Origin: an uncultured Methanosarcinales archaeon
GTDB lineage: Archaea > Nanobdellota > Nanobdellia > Woesearchaeales > GW2011-AR9
NCBI GenBank assembly: GCA_964344235.1
Contig: CAYFMJ010000015.1
Coordinates: forward strand, 1-19,710
Length of the DNA: 19,710 nucleotides
Direction of reading: 5' to 3'
The notes below the pieces were generated by a model, which worked only from the letters and a program-made list of their open reading frames with translations, was not told the DNA's origin and made no database searches. Shown here piece after piece: positions 212 to 15,313 of this stretch (position 1 is the first letter of the stretch; each line of letters begins with the position of its first letter). The position numbers and the translations under genes were made by a program.

Positions 212-1063
212 ATGGATGTGATGTTTCTCGTTGAAAAGTATGGAAAAATTCGTAACCTTAGTCCGAGAACGATAGACACCTATAAAGTAACATTATCAAA
301 GTTCTTTCGTAGACATTGGCGAAAAGATCCACGGGAGATAACAAAGCAGGATGTGGAGAACTACCTGTATGAATTGGTGCAACGTAATAAGTCTCCAAAG
401 ACGATCAATGTCTATTTGAGTGCTCTTAAGTTCTTTTTTGATATTGGATTGAAGAAGAAACTGCTTGTTAATGTTCCTTCATTAAAAACAGAGAAAGAGT
501 TACCTGTATTCTTAACGAAAGAGGAAGCACAGCGGCTCTTTGATGTGATTATGAATGATAAGCACAAATTGATGATTCTACTACTGTATTCTGCGGGTTT
601 GCGGGTGAGTGAGCTTGTTCACCTGAGAGTTCGTGATTTAGAGTTTGCGCAACAATATGGTTGGGTGAGGCAAGGTAAAGGAAGAAGGGATAGATTATTT
701 ATCGTTGCCGAGAAGATAAATAAAGAGTTACAGGAATGGGTTAAAACACAAAGATTACAGAGCGACGACTGGTTATTTCCTTCCTCTCGAGGTGGTCACT
801 TAACTGTTAGGACAGTACAATCCCTCCTTAGAACGGCAACAAAGAAAGCCAAGATTAACAAGAAAGTGACACCACACACATTACGCCATACGTTTGCAAC
901 TCATCTAATCGAGAATGGGTACGCTGTAACGGATGTGCAGCCATTATTAGGACATAATCGCTTGGATACAACCATGACGTATGTTCACATGGCGACTAAT
1001 AGAATGATTCGGGTAAAAAGTCCATTAGATGAGTTAGATAAAAATGCCGTCAAAAGATCATAA
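212..1063 (+). CDS. XerA/XerC/D-like tyrosine recombinase with N-terminal SAM-like domain
   Basis: Complete catalytic set: GLRVSE (R), GKG (K), HTLRH (HxxR), LGH, TMTY (Y). Lacks the integron-integrase-specific insertion between GKG and HxxR. TATA-like CTTATAAA at 181-188, 23 nt upstream of the ATG. Confidence 0.93.
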   Translation: MDVMFLVEKYGKIRNLSPRTIDTYKVTLSKFFRRHWRKDPREITKQDVENYLYELVQRNKSPKTINVYLSALKFFFDIGLKKKLLVNVPSLKTEKELPVFLTKEEAQRLFDVIMNDKHKLMILLLYSAGLRVSELVHLRVRDLEFAQQYGWVRQGKGRRDRLFIVAEKINKELQEWVKTQRLQSDDWLFPSSRGGHLTVRTVQSLLRTATKKAKINKKVTPHTLRHTFATHLIENGYAVTDVQPLLGHNRLDTTMTYVHMATNRMIRVKSPLDELDKNAVKRS

Positions 1064-2411: not shown

Positions 2412-3794
2412 ATGGAAGTAGACGTTATAGACTGGAAACTCATAGGAGCCTGTAACTTACGCTGCGGTCATTGTTACGGACCACCGAAATCAGAACAAGC
2501 ACTTCCATTGGAAGATCTTCTTACTGTCACAGAAAGATTTGAGCAAGTAGGCACGCAATGGGTCGTCGTGACAGGAGGAGAACCACTCCTCGTGCCAGGT
2601 ATAGAACGTGTTCTAGAAAGAATGAGTACGCGAGGAATTAAGGTCGCGCTCTCCACAAACTCCTCCTTTTTTCGAAGATATCAAGATATGATTGAACGAC
2701 ATGTCTCTTCACTGAACATTCCTCTTGATGGATCAACACCAGAGATACACGCACTCTCACGACATGATGAGAGAACATTTCACTCATTTTTCGATGTTCT
2801 TGATCATTACAGAGATCATCCAGAAAAGAAACCACCATTAATTCGAGTTGGAACTGTTTATTCAACAGCAACACAGGATGATCTTCTTGCAATGGCGCAA
2901 CTACTTGAACCATATGCAGATGTTTTTGACATGTGGAAAATATATGAACTGATTGATTACGAATTTCAACCAGAGAGGCGTCAATCCCTTCTTCACCCAA
3001 ATGGAAGATTTTCTGGAGACATGAATAGATTACTTGGAGGTACGCCTATCGCAGATAAGATAATGGTAAGCCCAGCTTATCGCAGGGATAAAGCGTATTT
3101 CATGATAAACCCCCAAGGAGAACTAATTCTCCCAACAGACATAAACGGAGTAACACACGAGATAGTGTTGGGAAACTTTCTCACTGACCCATTGGAGGAA
3201 TTAGTAGAAGAATGGAGACAAAGAGTTGTTCCAACGGATTACTTTGAGAATCATACACACTACAGGAGGCAAGAACCAGAATCAATTGAGAATGAAATTA
3301 AATTACGTATTGAAAACCCAGCACTTGTTCGCAATGCACTAAAACATCTTGGGGCGGATTATTCCACAACAGAAACACAAAGTGATACATACTTTGCTCG
3401 AGAAAATGGTGTTGAAGGAGAGAATATCCGTGTCCGTGCAGTCTCAAGTTCTGAAGGCGAACATTATGGTTATCTTACATATAAATCGCCACTCGACACA
3501 GAAGCTAAATTTCTTAAACGTGATGAACACCAAACAAGAGTTGATGATCCAAGTGCAACTTTAACAATCTTAGAGAGTCTTGGTTACAAAGTAGTTGACA
3601 GGATTACAAAAATCAGAGAATTGTATCACTTAGGAAGATTAGAGATCGCTCTTGATTATGTAGAGGGCTTAGGTCATTTCATAGAAGTAGAAGGTGATGA
3701 TACATCTATTATGAGCGTTGTTTCCATTCTTGGTTTGCAAGCGGCAAACCACATTAACAAATCCTATTCAGCATTACGAGATGAAAAACAATGA
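2412..3794 (+). CDS. Radical SAM enzyme (viperin-like motifs) fused to a C-terminal CYTH / class IV adenylate cyclase-like domain
   Basis: CNLRCGHC (CxxxCxxC, aa 14-21), TGGEPL, STN, WKIYE and YFMINPQG. From aa ~292 (nt 3285): ENEIK (ExExK), DTYF, IRVR, LTYK, KIRELY, LDYVEGLGHFIEVE, all typical of CYTH/CyaB. Confidence 0.88.
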   Translation: MEVDVIDWKLIGACNLRCGHCYGPPKSEQALPLEDLLTVTERFEQVGTQWVVVTGGEPLLVPGIERVLERMSTRGIKVALSTNSSFFRRYQDMIERHVSSLNIPLDGSTPEIHALSRHDERTFHSFFDVLDHYRDHPEKKPPLIRVGTVYSTATQDDLLAMAQLLEPYADVFDMWKIYELIDYEFQPERRQSLLHPNGRFSGDMNRLLGGTPIADKIMVSPAYRRDKAYFMINPQGELILPTDINGVTHEIVLGNFLTDPLEELVEEWRQRVVPTDYFENHTHYRRQEPESIENEIKLRIENPALVRNALKHLGADYSTTETQSDTYFARENGVEGENIRVRAVSSSEGEHYGYLTYKSPLDTEAKFLKRDEHQTRVDDPSATLTILESLGYKVVDRITKIRELYHLGRLEIALDYVEGLGHFIEVEGDDTSIMSVVSILGLQAANHINKSYSALRDEKQ

Positions 3795-5997: not shown

Positions 5998-6133
5998 AGA
6001 TCGTGTCTTTCCGATTAGAATATCGCTTAAAGAAGAAGAGATATTAAGAAAAGAAGCAAAGAAAACAAAAAAAAGTATAGCCACCCTCATTCGTAATGGC
6101 CGTTTGAAAGAGATCAATGAATTTTTTGTTTAA
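5963..6133 (+). CDS. Ribbon-helix-helix (CopG/MetJ-like) DNA-binding protein, 56 aa (not in the ORF track)
   Basis: MKRYIIPKENIKDRVFPIRISLKEEEILRKEAKKTKKSIATLIRNGRLKEINEFFV: beta-strand RVFPIRIS, helix, then the SIATLIR helix typical of RHH proteins. Confidence 0.65.
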   Translation: MKRYIIPKENIKDRVFPIRISLKEEEILRKEAKKTKKSIATLIRNGRLKEINEFFV

Positions 6134-7358
6134 TTAAGCTTTCAAACATTTTTTCTATCTTATCAAATCGTTGAACGATGTTATTGTTCATCATCCTTTC
6201 ATGCATATCAACGGCCTCTTGGATTTTTTCACGATCTAATGGCCTCTTACAGTTAACGCAGAAATCAGCAGTAAAACCATTGCCATAAGAACAAAAACCA
6301 CACGTTTTAACTGATTGGTCACGTTCTTTAGTTGCATCCATTAAACCTCTTCTCTGTAACTCTATCTTAAATGCATCCTCTTGACCACTCATGTCATACA
6401 CCTGTAACTGTTTTGTAGAAGTCCATCGAGCAGCTTGCTGGATTTGTAAATCGCTATCGCCTCGTTGCCTTCTGAATGTGACACCATTACGTTTAAGGCT
6501 ATAGCAGGTAATGCGCTTCTTAATTCCAAGACTACGGCAAGCATAGCGAAGCTTCTTGTTAATGTTAAAGTTAGTTAGCTGAGCAAATTTATTGAAGTTG
6601 CTTGTAGTGATAAAGAAAAAAGAGTCTTTCTGATCCTTAAAGGGATGGTTCTTGTACCACTCAACGACAAAGGGGTAGCTATCGATACATTGCAACATCC
6701 CCGTGCCTTCTTTCCCATGCTCTGAAATCCAAATTTTTGCATAGTTGTCATAGAATTCATAGTCACGGATTCTCGTGTAAAGAATCTCCTGCGGTCTTCC
6801 GAGAGATTCTACCGCTAAAGTGAGATATGCTTGCATTTGTGGATTGCCAGAAAAAAAGCCAACGATTTTATGAAATTCTTCTAACGTTAGGCGGTCATTA
6901 CGGCGTTTCTCTTTACTCTTATCAACGGTTCTTTTAAGATGCCTTACTACATAAGGAACAATAGTTTCATCGAAGCGGCCTCTTTCATCTTTTTCAGGGA
7001 GGATCGTTTTCCAAACATTTTTCAAATCTTTAATGAAATCACGCTTACTTTCAACTGTTTTGTTCCTCTTCTGGGAGAAAGCCACTAATCTATTAATATC
7101 ATTACGGGTACACTCTTTAAGATTCTTGTCAAGAACATAGGTAATCACTTTCATCACATGAAGAACTCTTATCCTACGAATATAACTTAAATCTTTCATT
7201 TCAAAGACATCTATTAGTTTTTTGAAATAAGTTAGGTTTACCGGATTCTTGCAATAATAGATTGCTTTCCTATTTGTTGGTTTATCACAAAGAAGATCTA
7301 GGTTTTTAATCATACTCTCATAACGAGCTTTGCTCTTGTAGATGTCGTCATCTGCCAT
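6114..7358 (-). CDS. Archaeal-type tyrosine integrase with C-terminal zinc ribbon
   Basis: ESLGRPQEI (catalytic R), HGKEG (K), YSLKRNG (variant of HxxR), RWTSTKQLQVY (W and Y) and C-terminal CGFC...CVNC. SD-like AGGTGA upstream; starts 144 nt downstream of the tRNA-Glu 3' end. Confidence 0.85.
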   Translation of the reverse strand: MADDDIYKSKARYESMIKNLDLLCDKPTNRKAIYYCKNPVNLTYFKKLIDVFEMKDLSYIRRIRVLHVMKVITYVLDKNLKECTRNDINRLVAFSQKRNKTVESKRDFIKDLKNVWKTILPEKDERGRFDETIVPYVVRHLKRTVDKSKEKRRNDRLTLEEFHKIVGFFSGNPQMQAYLTLAVESLGRPQEILYTRIRDYEFYDNYAKIWISEHGKEGTGMLQCIDSYPFVVEWYKNHPFKDQKDSFFFITTSNFNKFAQLTNFNINKKLRYACRSLGIKKRITCYSLKRNGVTFRRQRGDSDLQIQQAARWTSTKQLQVYDMSGQEDAFKIELQRRGLMDATKERDQSVKTCGFCSYGNGFTADFCVNCKRPLDREKIQEAVDMHERMMNNNIVQRFDKIEKMFESLIKQKIH

Positions 7359-9949: not shown

Positions 9950-11926
9950 ATGGGTTTGAAAGAGCTATTTAGCACGAAAAAAAGTGGTGAAAAGAGGAAG
10001 TTAGGATTCTATGTTTTGCTGTTTATTACAATCAACTCTATTTTAGGTAGTTCATTATTCTATTTACCGAATTTAGGAGTGATCAGTTCCGGTGCTGCAT
10101 CGATTATTGCGTGGATTGCTATTTTTATTATTGCAGTTGTGATTATGGCGTATATTGGAGAGTTAGTTGTTCTTCATCCATCATCTGGAGGGACGTATGA
10201 GTTCTGTAAACGAGCGTATGGAAGATTTGGTTCTTTCATTGCCGGTTGGTTGATTTGGATTGCAGGGAATTTTGGGATGGCCCTCAACATCGTAGCGGCA
10301 GCACAGTATTTTATTCCAGAGCAGTTAGGGTTGCAGTTGGTGTTTGCAGCAATTTGGATTATTGTGTTGAATTATATGGCGTATAGAAGTATCGATGCGG
10401 GTGCAACGATGTTAGTTGTGTTCGGAGTAATTGCAACGTTTGTGGTGCTGTTAATGACTCTTCCAGCGTTTATTGATATCCGTGCGTTATTTGGTGGAAG
10501 CTTACAGAGTGTGTTCTCATTTGATTTATTGCAACCGTTCTTTAGGCATGAAGGTCTGGGGATTCTTTCATATATGGGTTTATCATTATTGTTAATTAGT
10601 GAAGCGTTTTTAGGGTTTGAAGTTGTAACGTATATGTCGAATGAAGTAAGAAATAAAAGAGAGTTGCCACGAGTATTAGTGTGGGGAACTGTCATTAGTG
10701 GAGTTATTATGAGTATCTATGTGTTTAGTTCTTTGGGAGTTGTGCAGTATCATGATTATGTTAACAATTTACGGCCATTCGCTGTACATGCGTTTAACAC
10801 AATGGGGGCTATTGGGCAAAGTGTTGTGGTGTTTGGGATGTACCTCGTTATCATAGGAGCGGCAGCGGCGTGGCCGATTGCAGGCTCTCGTCTGTTACGG
10901 GCAATGGCAGGAGATAAATTGTTTCTGAAACATTTTGCAGAGTCACACCCAAAACATGGTTCGCCATATAGGGCTGTTATTTTCCAAGCAGTTGCAGTTG
11001 CGTTGTTTGCATGGTTTATCTTTAGAGGATCGATTGTAGGATGGCAAGATTCATATCGATCGATTTATTTGATCTACGTGTTGATTAGTTTAGTAGTGTT
11101 ATCGTTGATTTTATTGAGTGTGCCAATTTTACGGAAGAAAGAAAGTCATTTAAAGCGGGAATACAAAGCGCCACTTGGGTTTGTTGGACCGATTGCGTTA
11201 GTGGTATTATTTATTGTATTAATTGTGAATTGGTTCCTGATTGAAGGTGGTGTCGCAACGGCACTGTTGTTGTTAGCTGGTTCATTTATTATTTTCGGAT
11301 TGCCAGTGTATTTCTTTGTTGAAATGTTGTATAACTCTAAAGCGATTGTGGGAGTGAATAATTGGTTAGCGTATGTTTCTGTCTTCGGAGAAACGATATT
11401 TTTTCCATTTACAATCCGGGGCCGGTTTGTTAGGGAGATGGGAAATTTAACGGGGCATCGAATTTTAGAATACGGCTGTTCCGTTGGTTCTTTGACAAAA
11501 AAGTTGGCGCATAAAGTTGGCTCTCATGGGCGGGTGTATGCCACAGATATTTCTGAACATCGCGTAAAGGTAGCGGGGCAAAGGACAAAGAAGCACCGAC
11601 ACGTAAGTGTGCACCATCACCCCCATTTACATGATTTTAGATTATCCCTCCCTGAGAAAGTTGATCATGTTGTTTCAATCGGGATGTTATCATATATGCA
11701 GAAACCGAAACGAGTATTGAGTAAGATTGCGGAGAACATGGAGAAAGGTGGAGAAGTTATCTTTATTGATTATGATAAATTCTTTTGGTTGATTCCGAAT
11801 GTGAAGTGGGTTGAGAATGATGTGCAGTTGCATAAGATCTTCCATGACGCTGGGTTTGATGTGCAAGTACATCGGAAGAATAGTTTGTTTTGGCAGTATA
11901 TTATTGTGAAAGGGAAGAAGAGATAA
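9950..11926 (+). CDS. APC-superfamily amino acid permease fused to a C-terminal class I SAM-dependent methyltransferase domain
   Basis: TM1 ITINSILGSSLF, SGGTYEFCKRAYGRF, AFLGFE, SRLLRAMAGDKLF, HPKHGSPY, REYKAP. The C-terminus (aa ~500-658) has ILEYGCSVGSLT, VYATDISE and KGGEVIFIDY. TATA box at 9911-9918 and SD-like GAGGT. Confidence 0.9.
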   Translation: MGLKELFSTKKSGEKRKLGFYVLLFITINSILGSSLFYLPNLGVISSGAASIIAWIAIFIIAVVIMAYIGELVVLHPSSGGTYEFCKRAYGRFGSFIAGWLIWIAGNFGMALNIVAAAQYFIPEQLGLQLVFAAIWIIVLNYMAYRSIDAGATMLVVFGVIATFVVLLMTLPAFIDIRALFGGSLQSVFSFDLLQPFFRHEGLGILSYMGLSLLLISEAFLGFEVVTYMSNEVRNKRELPRVLVWGTVISGVIMSIYVFSSLGVVQYHDYVNNLRPFAVHAFNTMGAIGQSVVVFGMYLVIIGAAAAWPIAGSRLLRAMAGDKLFLKHFAESHPKHGSPYRAVIFQAVAVALFAWFIFRGSIVGWQDSYRSIYLIYVLISLVVLSLILLSVPILRKKESHLKREYKAPLGFVGPIALVVLFIVLIVNWFLIEGGVATALLLLAGSFIIFGLPVYFFVEMLYNSKAIVGVNNWLAYVSVFGETIFFPFTIRGRFVREMGNLTGHRILEYGCSVGSLTKKLAHKVGSHGRVYATDISEHRVKVAGQRTKKHRHVSVHHHPHLHDFRLSLPEKVDHVVSIGMLSYMQKPKRVLSKIAENMEKGGEVIFIDYDKFFWLIPNVKWVENDVQLHKIFHDAGFDVQVHRKNSLFWQYIIVKGKKR

Positions 11927-14254
11927 TCACTTCTTCTTACCGTAAATAAAGAGGTCATGTCTGAACGGAAGTTTTTTCTTGACGTAGGTTGCTTTCAGTT
12001 TATGTGATGCAAACATCTTTAACAATTTCTTTCGGTCATTTAACAGAAGAGAATTCGCTGCAACGTTAAATGTGTTCTCTGTGATATAGAAGCAGAATCT
12101 ACCTCCTTTCGGAAGCTGTTTCTGCACTGTTGTAAGAAATTTGTCAATATCATGTATAAAGCCGAGGTCGTTATACGACAAGAATATGGTTGGTTTACCT
12201 GTCTTGGAAGGGAAGGAGCCATGTTTAGAGACAGAAGATACAACGTTCTTATGTTTCACATCTTTCCGTACTGCGGCAACTTCTTCCTTAGAAGTGTTAA
12301 TGTGGTGGATTTTTTTGAACTTAAATTTCTTTGCTAGCACACTTGTTAAAGCACCAACAGGGGAGTTGTAATCAACGATAACATCATCTTTCTTAATTGG
12401 AGAGACATAGGACAACATGCGATTATATTCAATCCGTGGTTGCGGGATTTTGTGGAAGAATACTCTAATGCGAGCTAAAATGTTCTTACGCACTGTAACG
12501 TATTTTGCATCATAGAATAGTTCAATTGCAAAGTAGGCTGGAATACCAAATGCTATCAGTGAAGCGGAGACACGCAGGATGTCGAGAGCACCGTGGGTTT
12601 CGCGAATAAACATGACTAACAGAAACACCATGAAACCAACGATGAAGAATGGGCCAAATTTGCCGAGTGGCGCTCTGAACGCTCTCTTCATATCTGGTTT
12701 CTTGAAACGGAGAATGGCGACGCTTACTAATACAGCTGAGTAGACAACTAAAATTAATGGGATAAGCATGTGAAGTAATGTTTCATATGATCCCGCACCG
12801 ATCCACACGAGAATAGAAACGACAACGGCTTGAAACGCTATTGAGACGTATGGGCTTTTATGTTTTGGGTGGATTTTTGCGAAGTGAACAAAAAATAATT
12901 TATCTTCTGCAATGCTCATTAATAGACGCGGAGCGGTAACAATCCAACCAGCAGTTGCTCCAATAACAGAGACGAAGATCAGTAAGGTGAAGATAATACC
13001 CCCTGCAGAGCCGAAGTAGGTTGATCCTAAATCTCGTAATGGTGCAACAGATTCGGCAAATGTATCCCACGGAATATTACCCATTGCAGTAAATGCTAGC
13101 AAGAATGCCAGAAGAGCAATCACAACCGTTCCCCAGACGAGTGCTTTCGGCATGATTTTCCGAGGGTCTTTGGTTTCAGCAGCAAGGAAGATCGCTGATT
13201 CCCACCCAAAGAACGTTTCTGCGATGAAGAAGATAGCTAGGACGACGCTCATTGTTGGGAACACAAAGAATGGATCAAAGTTTGCAGGGTTTAACGAAAC
13301 GAAACCAGGAATAATAATACCAAGCACTGCAACGAGCGTAATTAATGCAAAGGTAACAAGTACGTAGGTTGAGGTCTGCATGCCACGAAAGGCAACGATG
13401 CTGAATAGGAGAATGAGAGCAATAGCAATGGGGATATAGGTAAAAGCGTATTGAGAGGGGATAAGGTATTGCAGTGCTCCTAATAAAAGCATAGCAATAG
13501 TTACACTACCGGAAATTGCAGTAGTCCAACCAATCACAAATGACCAGAATCTCCCGTAGGTTTGCTTTGCGAATTCATACACGCCACCCGCTTTCGGAAA
13601 CATGGAAACAAGCTCACCGAAACACATGGCAATGTAAATAGCAACAATTGAAAGAAGTCCCCATGAAAGAAGAGAGGCTGGACCCGCATGCTTTGCTCCT
13701 GCTGAGGTTAAGAACCAAATACCTGTTCCCATGATGGAATTAATGGTAATGAGGAGAATAACTTTGAAGCTCAACACGCCTTTGAGTTTTTTTTCGTGCG
13801 GTTGGACTTTGCGGATTTTTCCTTTCTTTACCTGCTTACGAATCCGTAAGAACCGGGGAGCTCTCGCGCCAAACCGTAGAAGTCTTAGGAGTCGGCCATA
13901 GCGAGCAAATCGCGCGAAGCGGGCCACTCTGCTAATGATTCTTACTCCACGAAGCGCTCGAATTAATGTGAGCCCTTCAATCCCAAGGAATATAAGGTTA
14001 AATGGAATTGTTGCGATAATGTCTAAAGAATGTTTCTTTACATAGGGTAGAAAATAGGGATTATCCTGCCACCTAAAATAAAGGTCTGTTGCAAAGATAA
14101 GGATAACATAAAAATCGAAGATGTCAATAAACAACTGTAATGAAGGGACGTTGTAAAATAATTCAATTATTGTGACAATTAAGAGAAGTACTAATGATGG
14201 AGGAATGAGAAACTGAATGAGCTTGTCAAGTCTATTTCGTGGTTTTACAGCCAT
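11927..14254 (-). CDS. Voltage-sensor domain (S1-S4) + APC-superfamily permease + degenerate methyltransferase-fold domain
   Basis: aa 1-140: S2 IFATDLYFRW, S3 LDIIATIPF and an S4 with RxxR repeats, with no pore or TVGYG motif. aa ~155-590: APC core (INSIMGTG, KAGGVYEF, FFGWE, PRLLMSIAEDKLF, RAFRAP). C-terminus: VIVDYNSPVG...PKGGRFCF. Confidence 0.88.
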   Translation of the reverse strand: MAVKPRNRLDKLIQFLIPPSLVLLLIVTIIELFYNVPSLQLFIDIFDFYVILIFATDLYFRWQDNPYFLPYVKKHSLDIIATIPFNLIFLGIEGLTLIRALRGVRIISRVARFARFARYGRLLRLLRFGARAPRFLRIRKQVKKGKIRKVQPHEKKLKGVLSFKVILLITINSIMGTGIWFLTSAGAKHAGPASLLSWGLLSIVAIYIAMCFGELVSMFPKAGGVYEFAKQTYGRFWSFVIGWTTAISGSVTIAMLLLGALQYLIPSQYAFTYIPIAIALILLFSIVAFRGMQTSTYVLVTFALITLVAVLGIIIPGFVSLNPANFDPFFVFPTMSVVLAIFFIAETFFGWESAIFLAAETKDPRKIMPKALVWGTVVIALLAFLLAFTAMGNIPWDTFAESVAPLRDLGSTYFGSAGGIIFTLLIFVSVIGATAGWIVTAPRLLMSIAEDKLFFVHFAKIHPKHKSPYVSIAFQAVVVSILVWIGAGSYETLLHMLIPLILVVYSAVLVSVAILRFKKPDMKRAFRAPLGKFGPFFIVGFMVFLLVMFIRETHGALDILRVSASLIAFGIPAYFAIELFYDAKYVTVRKNILARIRVFFHKIPQPRIEYNRMLSYVSPIKKDDVIVDYNSPVGALTSVLAKKFKFKKIHHINTSKEEVAAVRKDVKHKNVVSSVSKHGSFPSKTGKPTIFLSYNDLGFIHDIDKFLTTVQKQLPKGGRFCFYITENTFNVAANSLLLNDRKKLLKMFASHKLKATYVKKKLPFRHDLFIYGKKK

Positions 14255-14311
14255 ACAATACCTCTTTTTGTCTAGATAGGGAGAAATGTGTTATTAAATG
14301 TTTTGGAAGAG

Positions 14312-15313
14312 CTACTTCTTACGTTTCGGTTTCGCTTTCTTCACGGGTTTCTTAGATTTTCTTGCAGCTGTTTTCTTTGCTGCTCTTTTTGTAGGTTTCT
14401 TTTTAGGGGATGACTTTCTTTTTGCAGTTGGTTTTTTCTTCGGTTTAGTTCGAGATACTTTCTTCTCTAACTTTTTGATTTTCTCTAAATCTTCAATAAT
14501 GTCAGATGCAATAAACGAATATCCTTTCCTCTGTTTCAATAACACATCGCCAACAGCACCGTTGATGAACGCTGCCGCTGCAGCACTTTTGAATAAGTCC
14601 TGTGTTTTTCCTAAGAAACCAACGGCCAAACCTGCAAGAACATCCCCTGTGCCTGCTTTAGTCATGCCCTGATTACCAGTTCGGTTGAATGCAATCTTAT
14701 TACGGGAAATAATAATATCGGTTGGCCCCTTTAGTAGAAGAACGTTGTTGTTCTGAAGGAAGTATCGTAAGTTCCCTTGTAAAATTTCTGCTTTCTCTTT
14801 TGCGTTTGAACTTCGTAATTTAGGCAATAGGAATTCTTTGTGGCTGTTAACAAGCATCATCTCTAATTCTGTTTCATGCGGTGTAATAATGCAGTTGTGA
14901 AAATCTTTAAAGGACATTGATTTTAATGAATCTGCATCGACAACTTTTAACCTCGATGATTTTTTGATAAAGTAGGAGCTAAATTTGTCAGCTTTCCTGG
15001 TGATGCCATTACCAATCAGAACTGCGTCGAATCGGTCAGAATACTTTACCATCTCTTTGGCAAGTTTCACGGTAAATGCATTTTTGATTTTATCTGTGAT
15101 CAAATCAGGAGCATATTTGTTAATGGTCCAGGCAACTTTTTCTGGGGCGGCAATGGTTACAACATCACAGCCAGAACGAAGTGCAGCAAGTCCCGCTAAT
15201 GTAACTGCTCCCACAAATTGTTCAGAACCACCAATCACGAGAACTTTACCATTCTCTCCTTTGCGAGAGGTCTTCTTACGCTCCATCAACTTCTTTACTT
15301 GATTTAAGTTCAT
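14312..15313 (-). CDS. nnrD: ADP/ATP-dependent NAD(P)H-hydrate dehydratase (YjeF C-terminal/CARKD) with a Lys-rich H1-like tail
   Basis: RKGENGKVLVIGGS...GAVTLAGLAALRSG, VVDADSL, IITPHETE, LLKGPTDII, GMTKAGTGDVLAG. The last 50 aa contain 28 K/R and no acidic residue. Confidence 0.92.
   Translation of the reverse strand: MNLNQVKKLMERKKTSRKGENGKVLVIGGSEQFVGAVTLAGLAALRSGCDVVTIAAPEKVAWTINKYAPDLITDKIKNAFTVKLAKEMVKYSDRFDAVLIGNGITRKADKFSSYFIKKSSRLKVVDADSLKSMSFKDFHNCIITPHETELEMMLVNSHKEFLLPKLRSSNAKEKAEILQGNLRYFLQNNNVLLLKGPTDIIISRNKIAFNRTGNQGMTKAGTGDVLAGLAVGFLGKTQDLFKSAAAAAFINGAVGDVLLKQRKGYSFIASDIIEDLEKIKKLEKKVSRTKPKKKPTAKRKSSPKKKPTKRAAKKTAARKSKKPVKKAKPKRKK

What the first reader, a model, noticed from the sequence alone, without database searches (positions are those of the whole stretch)
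13835..14254. Voltage-sensor domain fused to an APC amino-acid transporter, with no ion pore
Seen in sequence: the first ~140 aa of the 775-aa minus-strand ORF form four segments with voltage-sensor hallmarks. S2 is IFATDLYFRW (aromatic plus acidic counter-charge plus R), S3 is LDIIATIPF, and S4 has 13 Arg at 3-4 residue spacing (aa 99-137: RALRGVRIISRVARFARFARYGRLLRLLRFGARAPRFLR). A basic linker leads straight into APC TM1 (INSIMGTG); there is no S5-P-S6 pore or K-channel filter. Established knowledge: S1-S4 domains couple to pores (Kv/Nav), to phosphatases (VSP), act alone (Hv1), or gate the SLC9C1 Na+/H+ exchanger; canonical S4 segments carry only about 4-8 basic residues. Inference: this may be a membrane-potential-gated LeuT-fold transporter, an architecture I do not recognise. 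In a host-dependent DPANN archaeon it could couple amino-acid uptake or export to energisation or host contact.
Basis: partly seen in the sequence, partly recalled or inferred. Interest (0 to 1): 0.92.

Follow-up and report, generated by a model that had tools for sequence, protein, structure and literature searches.

The report
Voltage sensor fused to archaeal amino-acid transporter
A tiny DPANN-type archaeon makes an amino-acid transporter with a channel-type voltage-sensing module, but no ion pore, built onto its front end; if the module works, this is the first prokaryotic carrier, and the first LeuT-fold carrier, switched by membrane voltage.

Summary
ORF 11927-14254 (-) encodes 775 aa. 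Residues 1-137 form four helices. They carry the canonical S2 pattern D47-x6-F54-x2-D57-x3-R61, the S3 motif D78-IIATIPF, and 13 Arg at 3-4-residue spacing in aa 99-137. A 23-aa basic linker runs straight into APC TM1 (Pfam AA_permease_2 from aa 161). There is no pore domain and no K+ filter.

The window's N-terminus gets no Pfam hit on its own. Family profiles, however, hit only voltage-sensor domains in the PDB (KvAP E 8e-5, then 5.6e-8 with a wider alignment). 20 of 39 orthologous N-termini match Pfam Ion_trans. An AF2 model (pLDDT 69) searched against 48,161 chains returned VSD-bearing proteins in 49 of the top 50 rows, at modest Z (9.7 or less).

The fusion is colinear and in frame in most of 52 species genomes, including two single-cell genomes, so it is not an assembly chimera. 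Its nearest relatives are stand-alone VSD-like proteins that are common in the same phylum.

Voltage gating of transport is inferred, not shown. I found no paper describing this architecture; SLC9C1 is the only published voltage-sensor-regulated carrier. This scan flagged the same architecture earlier in other genomes.

The parts
11927..14254 (-). Whole gene: 775-aa VSD / APC permease / methyltransferase-like fusion (stop codon included)
   Evidence: Single open frame. Colinear full-length tblastn matches at 55-71% identity in most of the 52 loci.
14153..14233 (-). S1 helix, aa 8-34; nearly invariant E31
   Evidence: AF2 helix 8-34; hydropathy peak at 12-30; conservation.
14063..14146 (-). S2 helix, aa 37-64, with D47-x6-F54-x2-D57-x3-R61 (outer acid, aromatic cap, inner acid and basic residue of a charge-transfer centre)
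   Evidence: AF2 helix 37-64. D47, F54 and D57 are nearly invariant across 122 diverse relatives. The region aligns to KvAP S2.
13982..14053 (-). S3 helix, aa 68-91, with the D78-IIATIPF motif (kinked at P84)
   Evidence: AF2 helices 68-74, 76-82 and 85 onward. I79, I80, A81, T82, I83, P84 and F85 are invariant in alignment A1.
13844..13975 (-). S4 and its extension, aa 94-137: 13 Arg at every third or fourth residue, ending in the family motif ARAPRFLR
   Evidence: Sequence. The KvAP S4 end 'RGSKFL' aligns with 'RAPRFL'. In 58 orthologues this region is 31-65 aa long, holds 10-19 K/R and carries almost no acidic residue.
13775..13843 (-). Basic linker, aa 138-160 (10 K/R), containing the invariant P152-H153 (KIRKVQPHEK motif) and leading into APC TM1
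   Evidence: K143, P152 and H153 are invariant in 58 orthologues.
12485..13774 (-). APC / SLC7-like permease core, aa 161-590 (12 TM; TM1 motif INSIMGTG)
   Evidence: Pfam AA_permease_2 at 147 bits and AA_permease at 117 bits. TIGR00909 E 3e-56. Nearest solved structures are BasC 6F2G (E 1.7e-25), GkApcT, xCT, LAT1 and AdiC.
11927..12484 (-). C-terminal methyltransferase-like domain, aa 591-775, with a degenerate SAM motif I (DYNSPVG)
   Evidence: Pfam Methyltransf_11 at 16.9 bits, below the 21.2-bit cut-off. Deeper-branching orthologues keep DYDCGVGG and score as real methyltransferases.
9950..11926 (+). Convergent neighbouring paralogue (658 aa): APC permease plus an intact SAM methyltransferase domain, without a VSD
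   Evidence: Pfam AA_permease_2 E 8.7e-40 and Methyltransf_31/25/11 E 1e-11 to 1e-14. About 30% identity to the VSD-bearing gene's orthologues.

Best explanation
The gene encodes one membrane protein of about 16 TM helices. Its N-terminal S1-S4 voltage-sensor domain (VSD) is homologous to those of KvAP, Kv and HCN channels. The VSD is joined through its S4 helix and a 23-residue basic linker directly to TM1 of an SLC7-like APC (LeuT-fold) amino-acid permease. A cytoplasmic, degenerate methyltransferase-like domain follows.

Shown here: the domain identities, the in-frame fusion, its conservation, the absence of a pore, and a consistent N-in/C-in topology.

Inferred: S4 moves with membrane potential. 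Because it is tethered to TM1 (TM1a is the inner-gate helix of LeuT-fold carriers) and probably packs on the permease core, this movement would shift the carrier between a locked and a transport-competent state.

The most likely physiological logic is an energisation check-valve. The carrier would work while the cell is polarised (S4 down, as in the long-S4, hyperpolarisation-activated HCN, KAT1 and SLC9C1 proteins) and be locked when the potential collapses, which would prevent back-leak of scavenged amino acids. The polarity and the substrate are guesses.
For: Homology to VSDs:
- phmmer of aa 1-146 against the PDB gives KvAP VSD entries as its top hits (E 0.026).
- A 39-sequence family profile yields 63 PDB hits at E<=1, all voltage-gated channels. 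The best are KvAP at 8e-5 and HCN1 at 2.4e-4, the latter covering S3 and the long S4.
- A 122-sequence profile gives KvAP E 5.6e-8 over its S1-S4, and all 19 hits at E<=0.01 are Kv VSDs.
- 20 of 39 orthologous N-termini match Pfam Ion_trans singly, best 5e-10.
- Stand-alone relatives match only the S1-S4 half of Ion_trans, with P0125 at 36 bits.

Functional residues:
- D47-x6-F54-x2-D57-x3-R61 has the same spacing as Kv1.2 E226/F233/E236/R240 (the Kv1.2 numbering is from established knowledge). Together with D78 in S3, these residues are nearly invariant even across 122 relatives at 20-40% identity.

Fold:
- The AF2 model (pLDDT 69.3, pTM 0.50) has four helices.
- Foldseek against the PDB lists VSDs in about 46 of its 49 rows. 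The best is KvAP 2KYH, E 0.021, TM 0.55.
- An unbiased VIA search of 48,161 chains returns VSD-bearing proteins in 49 of the top 50 rows. Examples: Kv4.2 Z 9.7, rmsd 4.1 A over 125 aa; SLC9C1 Z 8.0; Ci-VSP Z 8.2.

The fusion is real:
- 129 proteins of about 775 aa share the architecture.
- 52 species genomes carry it, including 2 single-cell genomes, and full-length tblastn is colinear.
- It is the only VSD-like sequence in this 96%-complete genome, which has no Ion_trans hit elsewhere.

S4 behaviour:
- Insertions and deletions in S4 keep the three-residue register: 50 of 58 region lengths are equal modulo 3.
- The linker residues P152-H153 are invariant.

Docking:
- VSD (aa 1-145) against the permease core (aa 146-600) gave only weak support: ipSAE 0.51, best of 3 controls 0.00. 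The pass mark was reached by 58 of 80 solved complexes and 2 of 110 mismatched pairs. A score of 0.60 or under was seen in only 7 of those 80 solved complexes and in both mismatches that passed. The runs agree in at least 76% of contacts and the partner pLDDT is at least 58. My own alignment was used, so these counts hold only roughly.
Against: - No functional data of any kind exist; voltage dependence is pure inference.
- The window's own N-terminus has no Pfam or NCBIfam hit.
- The S4 region of the model is low-confidence (pLDDT 48-62).
- All fold scores are modest. No Foldseek E-value is at or below 1e-3, and Z is 10 or less, below the tool's caution line for helical bundles.
- The first, shallower model gave only generic helical-bundle matches.
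- With 13-15 basic residues over about 40 aa, most of 'S4' cannot lie in the membrane field and may be a cytoplasmic or interfacial helix with another role.
- Many VSD homologues (TRP and CNG channels) keep the fold without sensing voltage.
Confidence: 0.55

Rival explanations
1. The N-terminal domain is a true evolutionary relative of VSDs but no longer senses voltage. It would serve as a structural, lipid-binding, oligomerisation or partner-docking module for the permease, as S1-S4 does in TRP or CNG channels. The Arg-rich helix would be an interfacial anchor to anionic archaeal lipids.
For: The basic helix is about twice as long as a bilayer-spanning S4, and its length varies from 31 to 65 aa among orthologues. 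The S4 part of the model has low confidence. Stand-alone relatives of the domain are common and diverse in this phylum, and many carry long acidic S3-S4 insertions. No functional data exist.
Against: The full set of residues needed for gating-charge transfer (D47, F54, D57, D78 and E31) is nearly invariant. The strict R-x-x register is preserved through insertions and deletions, with almost no acidic residue. Non-sensing VSD homologues typically lose these features (established knowledge, not tested here).
Confidence: 0.27
2. The VSD is itself a conduction pathway, either an Hv1-like proton path or a gating-pore ('omega') path. Fused to the carrier, it would supply or dissipate the coupling ion or charge locally.
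For: Pore-less VSDs can conduct protons (Hv1). The model also aligns to the Hv1 chimera 3WKV at Z 7.3. A conserved acidic residue (E31) sits in S1.
Against: The model ranks Kv, HCN and KvAP sensors above Hv1. S4 lacks the Hv1 RxWRxxR signature, having no Trp. The intact aromatic cap F54 and a full ladder of arginines normally occlude the gating pore (established knowledge).
Confidence: 0.08
3. The apparent fusion is an artefact (assembly chimera, missed stop or frameshift, wrong start), or the resemblance to S1-S4 is chance in a hydrophobic, Arg-rich leader.
For: The window's own N-terminus gives no Pfam hit. No sequencing run could be listed to inspect reads.
Against: The same continuous frame of 760-870 aa occurs in 23 of 401 sampled high-quality genomes and in 52 species genomes, including two single-cell genomes. 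tblastn alignments are colinear across the junction. The junction residues are invariant. Profile hits in the PDB are exclusively VSDs.
Confidence: 0.02

Closest known systems
SLC9C1 (sperm-specific Na+/H+ exchanger, sNHE)
   Same: A channel-type S1-S4 VSD is covalently part of a secondary transporter with no ion pore. S4 is unusually long and there is no S4-S5 linker (about 60 A in SLC9C1; PMC10620092). The model aligns to the SpSLC9C1 VSD at Z 8.0, rmsd 3.2 A over 112 aa. [quoted passage not shown]
   Different: SLC9C1 is an animal protein. Its carrier has the CPA/NhaA fold, its VSD lies C-terminal to the carrier, and coupling runs through cytoplasmic helices and a cyclic-nucleotide-binding domain. 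Here the organism is an archaeon, the carrier is APC/LeuT-fold, the VSD is N-terminal and tied directly to TM1, no CNBD is present, and the cytoplasmic domain is methyltransferase-like. The fusion is therefore independent.
KvAP and other 6-TM voltage-gated channels (Kv, HCN, KAT1)
   Same: These are the best sequence and fold relatives of aa 1-137. They share S1-S4, the charge-transfer-centre residues and Arg at every third position in S4. The KvAP S4 end 'RGSKFL' aligns with 'RAPRFL'. The long S4 resembles that of hyperpolarisation-activated HCN.
   Different: There is no S5-P-S6 pore and no selectivity filter. The Ion_trans profile is matched only over its first half in relatives. S4 carries 13-15 basic residues, against about 6 between R117 and K136 of KvAP.
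Stand-alone VSD-like proteins of the same archaeal phylum (140-350 aa, unnamed)
   Same: These are the nearest relatives outside the fusion (E 1e-43 to 1e-11). They share S1-S3, the R-x-x helix and the RxPRF end motif. They are present in 165 of 401 sampled genomes.
   Different: They are not fused to a transporter. Many carry a long acidic S3-S4 insertion or an extra N-terminal segment of about 130 aa. Their function is unknown.
Ci-VSP and Hv1 (pore-less VSD proteins)
   Same: A VSD is used without a pore domain and controls something else or acts alone. Fold matches are Z 8.2 (Ci-VSP, 4G7V) and Z 7.3 (Hv1 chimera, 3WKV).
   Different: The effector here is a 12-TM carrier in the membrane, not a cytosolic phosphatase or the VSD itself.
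BasC, GkApcT, LAT1 and AdiC (SLC7/APC transporters)
   Same: The permease core (aa 161-590) is an ordinary member of this group: E 1.7e-25 to BasC 6F2G and a conserved TM1 G-T-G motif.
   Different: None of the solved members has an N-terminal VSD. A functional interplay in trans between Slc7a5 (LAT1) and the VSD of Kv1 channels has been reported (PMC7690953, title and abstract), but the two are not fused.

Membership tests
[quoted passage not shown] | Significant sequence-profile similarity to known VSDs | tested here: met
   Family profiles hit only VSDs in the PDB: KvAP 8e-5 and 5.6e-8. 20 of 39 orthologous N-termini hit PF00520 singly, best 5e-10. Caveat: the window's own copy gives no Pfam or NCBIfam hit by itself.
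[quoted passage not shown] | Four transmembrane helices, N-terminus inside | tested here: met
   AF2 helices at 8-34, 37-64, 68-102 (kinked) and 105-131. Basic residues cluster in the N-terminus, the S2-S3 loop and the segment after S4. The S1-S2 and S3-S4 loops are short and carry no basic residue.
[quoted passage not shown] | Gating-charge transfer centre: aromatic residue in S2, acid three residues later, acid in S3, plus an outer acid | tested here: met
   F54, D57, D78 and D47 are present. D47, F54 and D57 are nearly invariant in 122 relatives, and D78 is at 90% or more in the fused family.
[quoted passage not shown] | S4 with basic residues at every third position | tested here: met
   13 Arg lie in aa 99-137 with spacings of 3 or 4. 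Orthologues carry 10-19 K/R and virtually no acidic residue.
[quoted passage not shown] | Three-dimensional fold superimposable on solved VSDs | tested here: met
   49 of the top 50 rows of an unbiased search of 48,161 chains are VSD-bearing proteins, covering residues 1-145. In Foldseek the best hit is the KvAP VSD, TM 0.55, probability 1.00. Caveats: model pLDDT is 69 and S4 is about 50-60. Z is 9.7 or less and no Foldseek E-value is at or below 1e-3. A shallower model was inconclusive.
[quoted passage not shown] | S4 charge movement in response to membrane potential | not testable with these tools
   This needs gating-current or voltage-clamp-fluorometry measurements.
6-TM voltage-gated ion channel | S5-P-S6 pore domain with a selectivity filter after S4 | tested here: not met
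   The APC profile starts at aa 161, 23 residues after S4. The protein has no TxGxG, GYG or GFG motif. The genome has no PF00520 match elsewhere.
APC superfamily amino-acid permease (Pfam AA_permease_2; SLC7-like) | Profile match above the curated threshold over the 12-TM core | tested here: met
   PF13520 at 147.4 bits (cut-off 27) over aa 161-547 and PF00324 at 116.6 bits. BasC 6F2G at E 1.7e-25 over 415 aa.
APC superfamily amino-acid permease (Pfam AA_permease_2; SLC7-like) | Conserved unwound TM1 glycine motif (G-[ST]-G) of the substrate site | tested here: met
   In INSIMGTGI, residues N172 to I179 are invariant in 58 orthologues.
APC superfamily amino-acid permease (Pfam AA_permease_2; SLC7-like) | Substrate transport and specificity | not testable with these tools
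   All NCBIfam equivalog models score far below their cut-offs, so no substrate can be assigned.
SLC9C1-type voltage-gated solute carrier | VSD covalently joined to a secondary transporter without a pore | tested here: met
SLC9C1-type voltage-gated solute carrier | CPA (NhaA-fold) exchanger followed by a C-terminal VSD and a cyclic-nucleotide-binding domain | tested here: not met
   The carrier is APC-fold, the VSD is N-terminal, and no cNMP-binding Pfam hit was found. The protein is an analogue, not a member.
Class I SAM-dependent methyltransferase (C-terminal domain) | Glycine-rich SAM-binding motif I and a profile score above threshold | tested here: not met
   Methyltransf_11 scores 16.9 bits against a cut-off of 21.2. 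Motif I reads DYNSPVG here, against DYDCGVGG in deeper-branching orthologues.

The most novel reading that the evidence does not exclude
Woesearchaeal archaea possess a family of secondary amino-acid carriers whose alternating-access cycle is directly gated by membrane potential through a channel-type voltage sensor tethered to TM1. This would be the first voltage-gated carrier in prokaryotes and the first of the LeuT fold, evolved independently of animal SLC9C1. The abundant stand-alone relatives would be free-standing voltage-sensor modules that archaea with tiny genomes use to make other membrane processes voltage-dependent.
Probability: 0.45. Interest if true: 0.92.

Novelty: new variant of a known kind. 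Interest (0 to 1): 0.8.

Why it matters
Voltage sensors are thought of as channel parts. One animal exchanger (SLC9C1) is the only published carrier controlled by one.

A conserved archaeal VSD-APC fusion would show that coupling a voltage sensor to an alternating-access carrier arose more than once, in prokaryotes, and on the LeuT fold. That fold underlies neurotransmitter and SLC7 amino-acid transporters.

The direct S4-to-TM1 tether is the simplest electromechanical coupling one could imagine. It would be a compact model system for how S4 motion can drive a carrier gate, and a possible template for engineering voltage-switchable transporters.

Biologically, it would reveal how metabolically dependent, tiny archaea tie nutrient scavenging to their energy state.

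The pool of stand-alone VSD-like genes in the same phylum also bears on the evolutionary origin of voltage sensors as independent modules.

Tried and rejected
- Single-sequence Pfam and NCBIfam scans of aa 1-146 found no VSD family. I kept this as a caveat, not a refutation, because family profiles and 20 of 39 orthologues do hit.
- The first AF2 model, from 39 close orthologues, had pLDDT 65.6 and pTM 0.40. In Foldseek the top two hits were KvAP, but at E 0.3-0.4. The VIA wide list was generic helical bundles, with KvAP tied at Z 7.9. That was inconclusive, so I repeated the prediction with a 122-sequence alignment.
- An assembly chimera or hidden stop is rejected.
- A potassium-channel pore hidden between S4 and the permease is rejected.
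- A strictly conserved gene pair with the neighbouring APC-methyltransferase paralogue is rejected. A P0002-type orthologue lies within the fetched flanks in only 5 of about 50 loci (L003, L007, L010, L012, L022). Those loci often also hold a third VSD-less paralogue directly upstream.
- I first thought the 'acidic-S4' stand-alone relatives lacked an S4. On inspection they keep an R-x-x-R helix before RxPRF, and the acidic part is an S3-S4 insertion.
- Sequencing runs holding window 13400-14400: none was listed, and no RNA holder was listed.
- Six full-text literature searches combining voltage sensor / voltage-sensing domain with amino acid permease, APC superfamily, Woesearchaeota, DPANN, or prokaryotic domain architectures returned no paper describing this fusion. 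The library lacks most subscription journals, so this is not proof of absence.
- The ESM Atlas feature search of aa 1-145 gave short Ion_trans clusters at 0.89 as its top named hits. That is below the 0.9 lead threshold, so I treat it as a lead only.
- Gene contexts of two stand-alone relatives showed no transporter neighbour.
Full report
**1. What is in the sequence**

The minus-strand ORF 11927-14254 encodes 775 aa without interruption. The finding's coordinates, 13835-14254, are aa 1-140.

- The quoted segments are exact. S2 is IDIFDFYVILIFATDLYFRW and S3 is LDIIATIPF.
- Residues 99-137 contain 13 Arg with spacings 3,3,4,3,3,3,3,3,3,4,3,3, followed by R139 and K140.
- A 23-residue linker (aa 138-160) carries 10 K/R and leads into the APC permease. 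Pfam AA_permease_2 covers aa 161-547 at 147 bits and AA_permease scores 117 bits. TIGR00909 gives E 3e-56.
- No potassium-filter-like motif exists anywhere in the protein, and there is no room for S5-P-S6.
- After the 12-TM core comes a domain of about 185 aa that scores weakly as a methyltransferase: Methyltransf_11 at 16.9 bits against a cut-off of 21.2.
- Loop charges fit an N-in topology. S4 then ends in the cytoplasm, where APC TM1 begins.

**2. Is aa 1-137 a voltage-sensor domain?**

Alone, the window's N-terminus hits no Pfam or NCBIfam family. That has to be stated as a weakness. Even so, the single sequence has KvAP voltage-sensor entries as its best PDB matches (1ORS, E 0.026).

Profile evidence:
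- I built a profile from the window plus 38 orthologous N-termini fetched from genomes (A1). It gave 63 PDB hits at E<=1, and every one is a voltage-gated channel: KvAP 8e-5, HCN1 2.4e-4, Kv1.3, hERG, Kv2.1, Kv4, a NaChBac chimera and GORK.
- An exhaustive HMMER search of 1.84 billion representatives found 574 relatives.
- Adding these to the alignment (A2, 122 sequences) raised the KvAP match to E 5.6e-8 across KvAP residues 19-134, which is S1 to S4. All 19 hits at E<=0.01 are Kv sensors.
- 20 of the 39 orthologous N-termini match Pfam Ion_trans individually, best 5e-10.
- Stand-alone relatives match only positions ~2-119 of the 241-position Ion_trans model, which is the S1-S4 half.

Residue evidence:
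- The conserved residues are the ones that matter for a sensor: E31 in S1, then D47-x6-F54-x2-D57-x3-R61 in S2. This spacing equals that of Kv1.2 E226/F233/E236/R240 (Kv1.2 numbering from established knowledge). D78 lies in S3.
- D47, F54 and D57 stay nearly invariant even across the 122 relatives at 20-40% identity.

**3. The fold test**

A model from the 39 close orthologues was poor (pLDDT 65.6). It gave only weak KvAP matches among generic helical bundles.

With the 122-row alignment the model improved to pLDDT 69.3 and pTM 0.50. S1-S3 sit near pLDDT 80, and the S4 region at 48-62.
- In Foldseek against the PDB, about 46 of the 49 listed rows are voltage sensors. The best is the KvAP VSD 2KYH (E 0.021, probability 1.00, TM 0.55), and no row reaches E<=1e-3.
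- The VIA second look gave Kv4.2 at Z 10.0 (rmsd 4.3 A over 125 aa) and HCN4 at Z 9.6.
- The search that does not lean on Foldseek, over 48,161 representative chains, returned VSD-bearing proteins in 49 of its top 50 rows. These include Kv4.2 (Z 9.7), Kv2.1, Kv3.1, HCN3, CatSper, KAT1, hERG, KvAP, Ci-VSP, Cav, Nav, SLC9C1 (Z 8.0, rmsd 3.2 A over 112 aa) and Hv1. The alignments span residues 1-145.

The Z values lie below the tool's caution line for helical bundles. The weight therefore rests on the exclusivity of the list and its agreement with the sequence profiles, not on any single score. I could not inspect coordinates, so Arg-to-acid distances remain unchecked.

**4. Is the fusion real and conserved?**

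- 129 proteins, nearly all 745-800 aa, match aa 1-160 and carry the APC Pfam domains.
- 52 species-level genomes encode the N-terminal domain. All but one, L052, carry it as part of the fusion. They include two single-cell amplified genomes, L027 and L040.
- tblastn of the whole protein gives single colinear alignments across the junction at 55-71% identity in most loci.
- The junction itself is conserved. K143, P152 and H153 are invariant in 58 orthologues.
- In a sample of 401 high-quality genomes of the phylum, 23 (including this one) carry the domain inside an open frame of 600-870 aa. All 23 belong to the same order, and 16 to the window's own family.
- The window's genome is 1.19 Mb and 96% complete. 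It has exactly one copy and no other Ion_trans match.

An assembly chimera or hidden stop is therefore excluded. The total of 165 of 401 genomes with any match includes two unpublished genomes (G242, G395). Both contribute only stand-alone-type matches, and no claim about the fusion rests on them.

**5. Relatives and origin**

Outside the fusion, the nearest relatives are short proteins.
- One group is 140-230 aa and consists of the domain alone.
- Another group is about 260-310 aa, with an extra N-terminal segment of about 130 aa.
- All share S1-S3, an R-x-x helix and the terminal RxPRF motif. That motif aligns with the KvAP S4 end 'RGSKFL'.
- Many carry a long acidic insertion between S3 and S4.

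The fused form thus looks like the capture of a pre-existing, free-standing module that is widespread in this phylum.

Within the fused family, the S4 region varies from 31 to 65 aa with 10-19 basic residues and almost no acidic residue. 50 of 58 region lengths are equal modulo 3, so insertions and deletions add or remove whole R-x-x units and preserve the register.

**6. The carrier and the tail**

The permease core is an ordinary SLC7-like APC member. Its nearest solved structures are BasC (6F2G, E 1.7e-25), GkApcT, xCT, b0,+AT, LAT1 and AdiC. The TM1 motif INSIMGTGI is invariant. No NCBIfam equivalog model comes near its cut-off, so the substrate is open.

The C-terminal domain is a recognisable SAM methyltransferase in deeper-branching orthologues, whose motif I reads DYDCGVGG. 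In the window's clade it reads DYNSPVG, which points to a pseudo-enzyme or regulatory domain.

The convergent neighbour (9950-11926, +) is a VSD-less paralogue with an intact methyltransferase domain. This pairing appears in only a minority of the loci.

**7. How it most likely works**

Shown: a VSD homologue that retains every sequence hallmark of a functional sensor is tethered by S4 and a conserved basic linker to TM1 of a LeuT-fold carrier.

Inferred: membrane potential moves S4, and this motion is passed to the carrier through two routes, the tether and an interface with the core. The tether matters because TM1a forms the inner gate in LeuT-fold transporters (established knowledge).

A docking test of aa 1-145 against aa 146-600 gave only weak support for an interface:
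- ipSAE was 0.51, and the best of 3 controls was 0.00.
- The pass mark was reached by 58 of 80 solved complexes and 2 of 110 mismatched pairs.
- A score of 0.60 or under was seen in only 7 of those 80 solved complexes and in both mismatches that passed.
- The runs agree in at least 76% of contacts and the partner pLDDT is at least 58.
- My own alignment was used, so these counts hold only roughly.

The very long S4 recalls HCN and SLC9C1. In SLC9C1, S4 continues about 60 A and there is no S4-S5 linker (PMC10620092). Both are activated by hyperpolarisation. In a cell whose resting potential is strongly negative, a carrier that is enabled when polarised and locked on depolarisation would stop scavenged amino acids from leaking out when energy fails. 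The polarity and the substrate are guesses.

The main rival reading is that the domain keeps the fold but not the sensing, and acts as a lipid or partner anchor. An Hv1-like conducting role is less likely.

**8. Comparison and novelty**

The closest functional analogue is SLC9C1. Its structure paper calls it the only known transporter regulated by voltage-sensing domains. That protein differs in carrier fold, domain order, coupling elements and kingdom, so the archaeal fusion is independent.

Six full-text searches found no description of a VSD-APC fusion. Public annotations call these proteins simply 'APC family permease' or 'amino acid permease'.

This scan had already flagged the same architecture in other genomes (e1-2565870, e1-5473906, e1-4812504). 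For one of them, a later check judged the fold test weak. Here the deeper alignment gives a clearer, though still moderate, fold result.

I rate the finding a new variant of a known kind: a pore-less, VSD-controlled membrane protein. The architecture is well supported. The function is untested.

Noticed in passing
phylum-wide; examples L054:4001-4492, L052:5195-5998: Stand-alone VSD-like proteins of 130-350 aa, with no pore and no transporter, occur in 165 of 401 sampled high-quality genomes of this archaeal phylum. One lies in a complete 875-kb genome (CP066684.1). The count includes two unpublished genomes, G242 and G395. The ESM Atlas also lists short Ion_trans clusters in CPR bacteria, which is a lead only. 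Their function is unknown.
   Followed up: partly
L052:5195-5998; P0125 contig: A subtype with an extra N-terminal membrane segment of about 130 aa before the VSD sits directly upstream of nrdR (and of nrdD in the P0125 contig) in two unrelated contigs. This may be conserved synteny.
   Followed up: no
window 13844-13975 (aa 94-137) and orthologues: The Arg-rich S4 region expands and contracts among orthologues (31-65 aa, 10-19 K/R). This happens mostly in steps of three residues: 50 of 58 lengths are equal modulo 3. The pattern looks like gain and loss of whole R-x-x units.
   Followed up: yes
window 9950-11926 (+) and 11927-12484 (-): Two convergent, abutting APC-methyltransferase paralogues. 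The plus-strand copy has an intact SAM motif I (EYGCSVG). The VSD-bearing copy has a degenerate one (DYNSPVG), whereas deep-branching orthologues keep DYDCGVGG. Some genomes (L003, L007, L010, L012) cluster three such paralogues.
   Followed up: partly
window 13775-13843 (aa 138-160): The linker motif KIRKVQPHEK has invariant P152-H153. Similar '(F/Y)E(H/K)P(H)' tails occur at the C-termini of several stand-alone relatives (for example P0179, P0184, P0229). The tail therefore seems to be part of the ancestral module.
   Followed up: partly
window 212-1063 (+) and 6114-7358 (-): Two tyrosine-recombinase (Phage_integrase) genes lie within 7 kb. Between them are an AsnC/HTH regulator, a radical-SAM-CYTH fusion (2412-3794), an adenylate-kinase-like gene and a NUDIX gene. 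This may be an integrated element.
   Followed up: no
window 14312-15313 (-): The NAD(P)H-hydrate dehydratase (Carb_kinase) gene directly upstream of the VSD gene ends in an extremely Lys-rich tail of about 50 aa (KKKPTAKRKSSPKKKPTKRAAKK...).
   Followed up: no
L003, L004, L005, L006 and others: Many genome records that carry the fusion at 70-80% identity to Woesearchaeota copies are titled 'uncultured Methanosarcinales archaeon'. One protein (P0052) is labelled Marinimicrobia. These are probably taxonomic mislabels of the bins.
   Followed up: no
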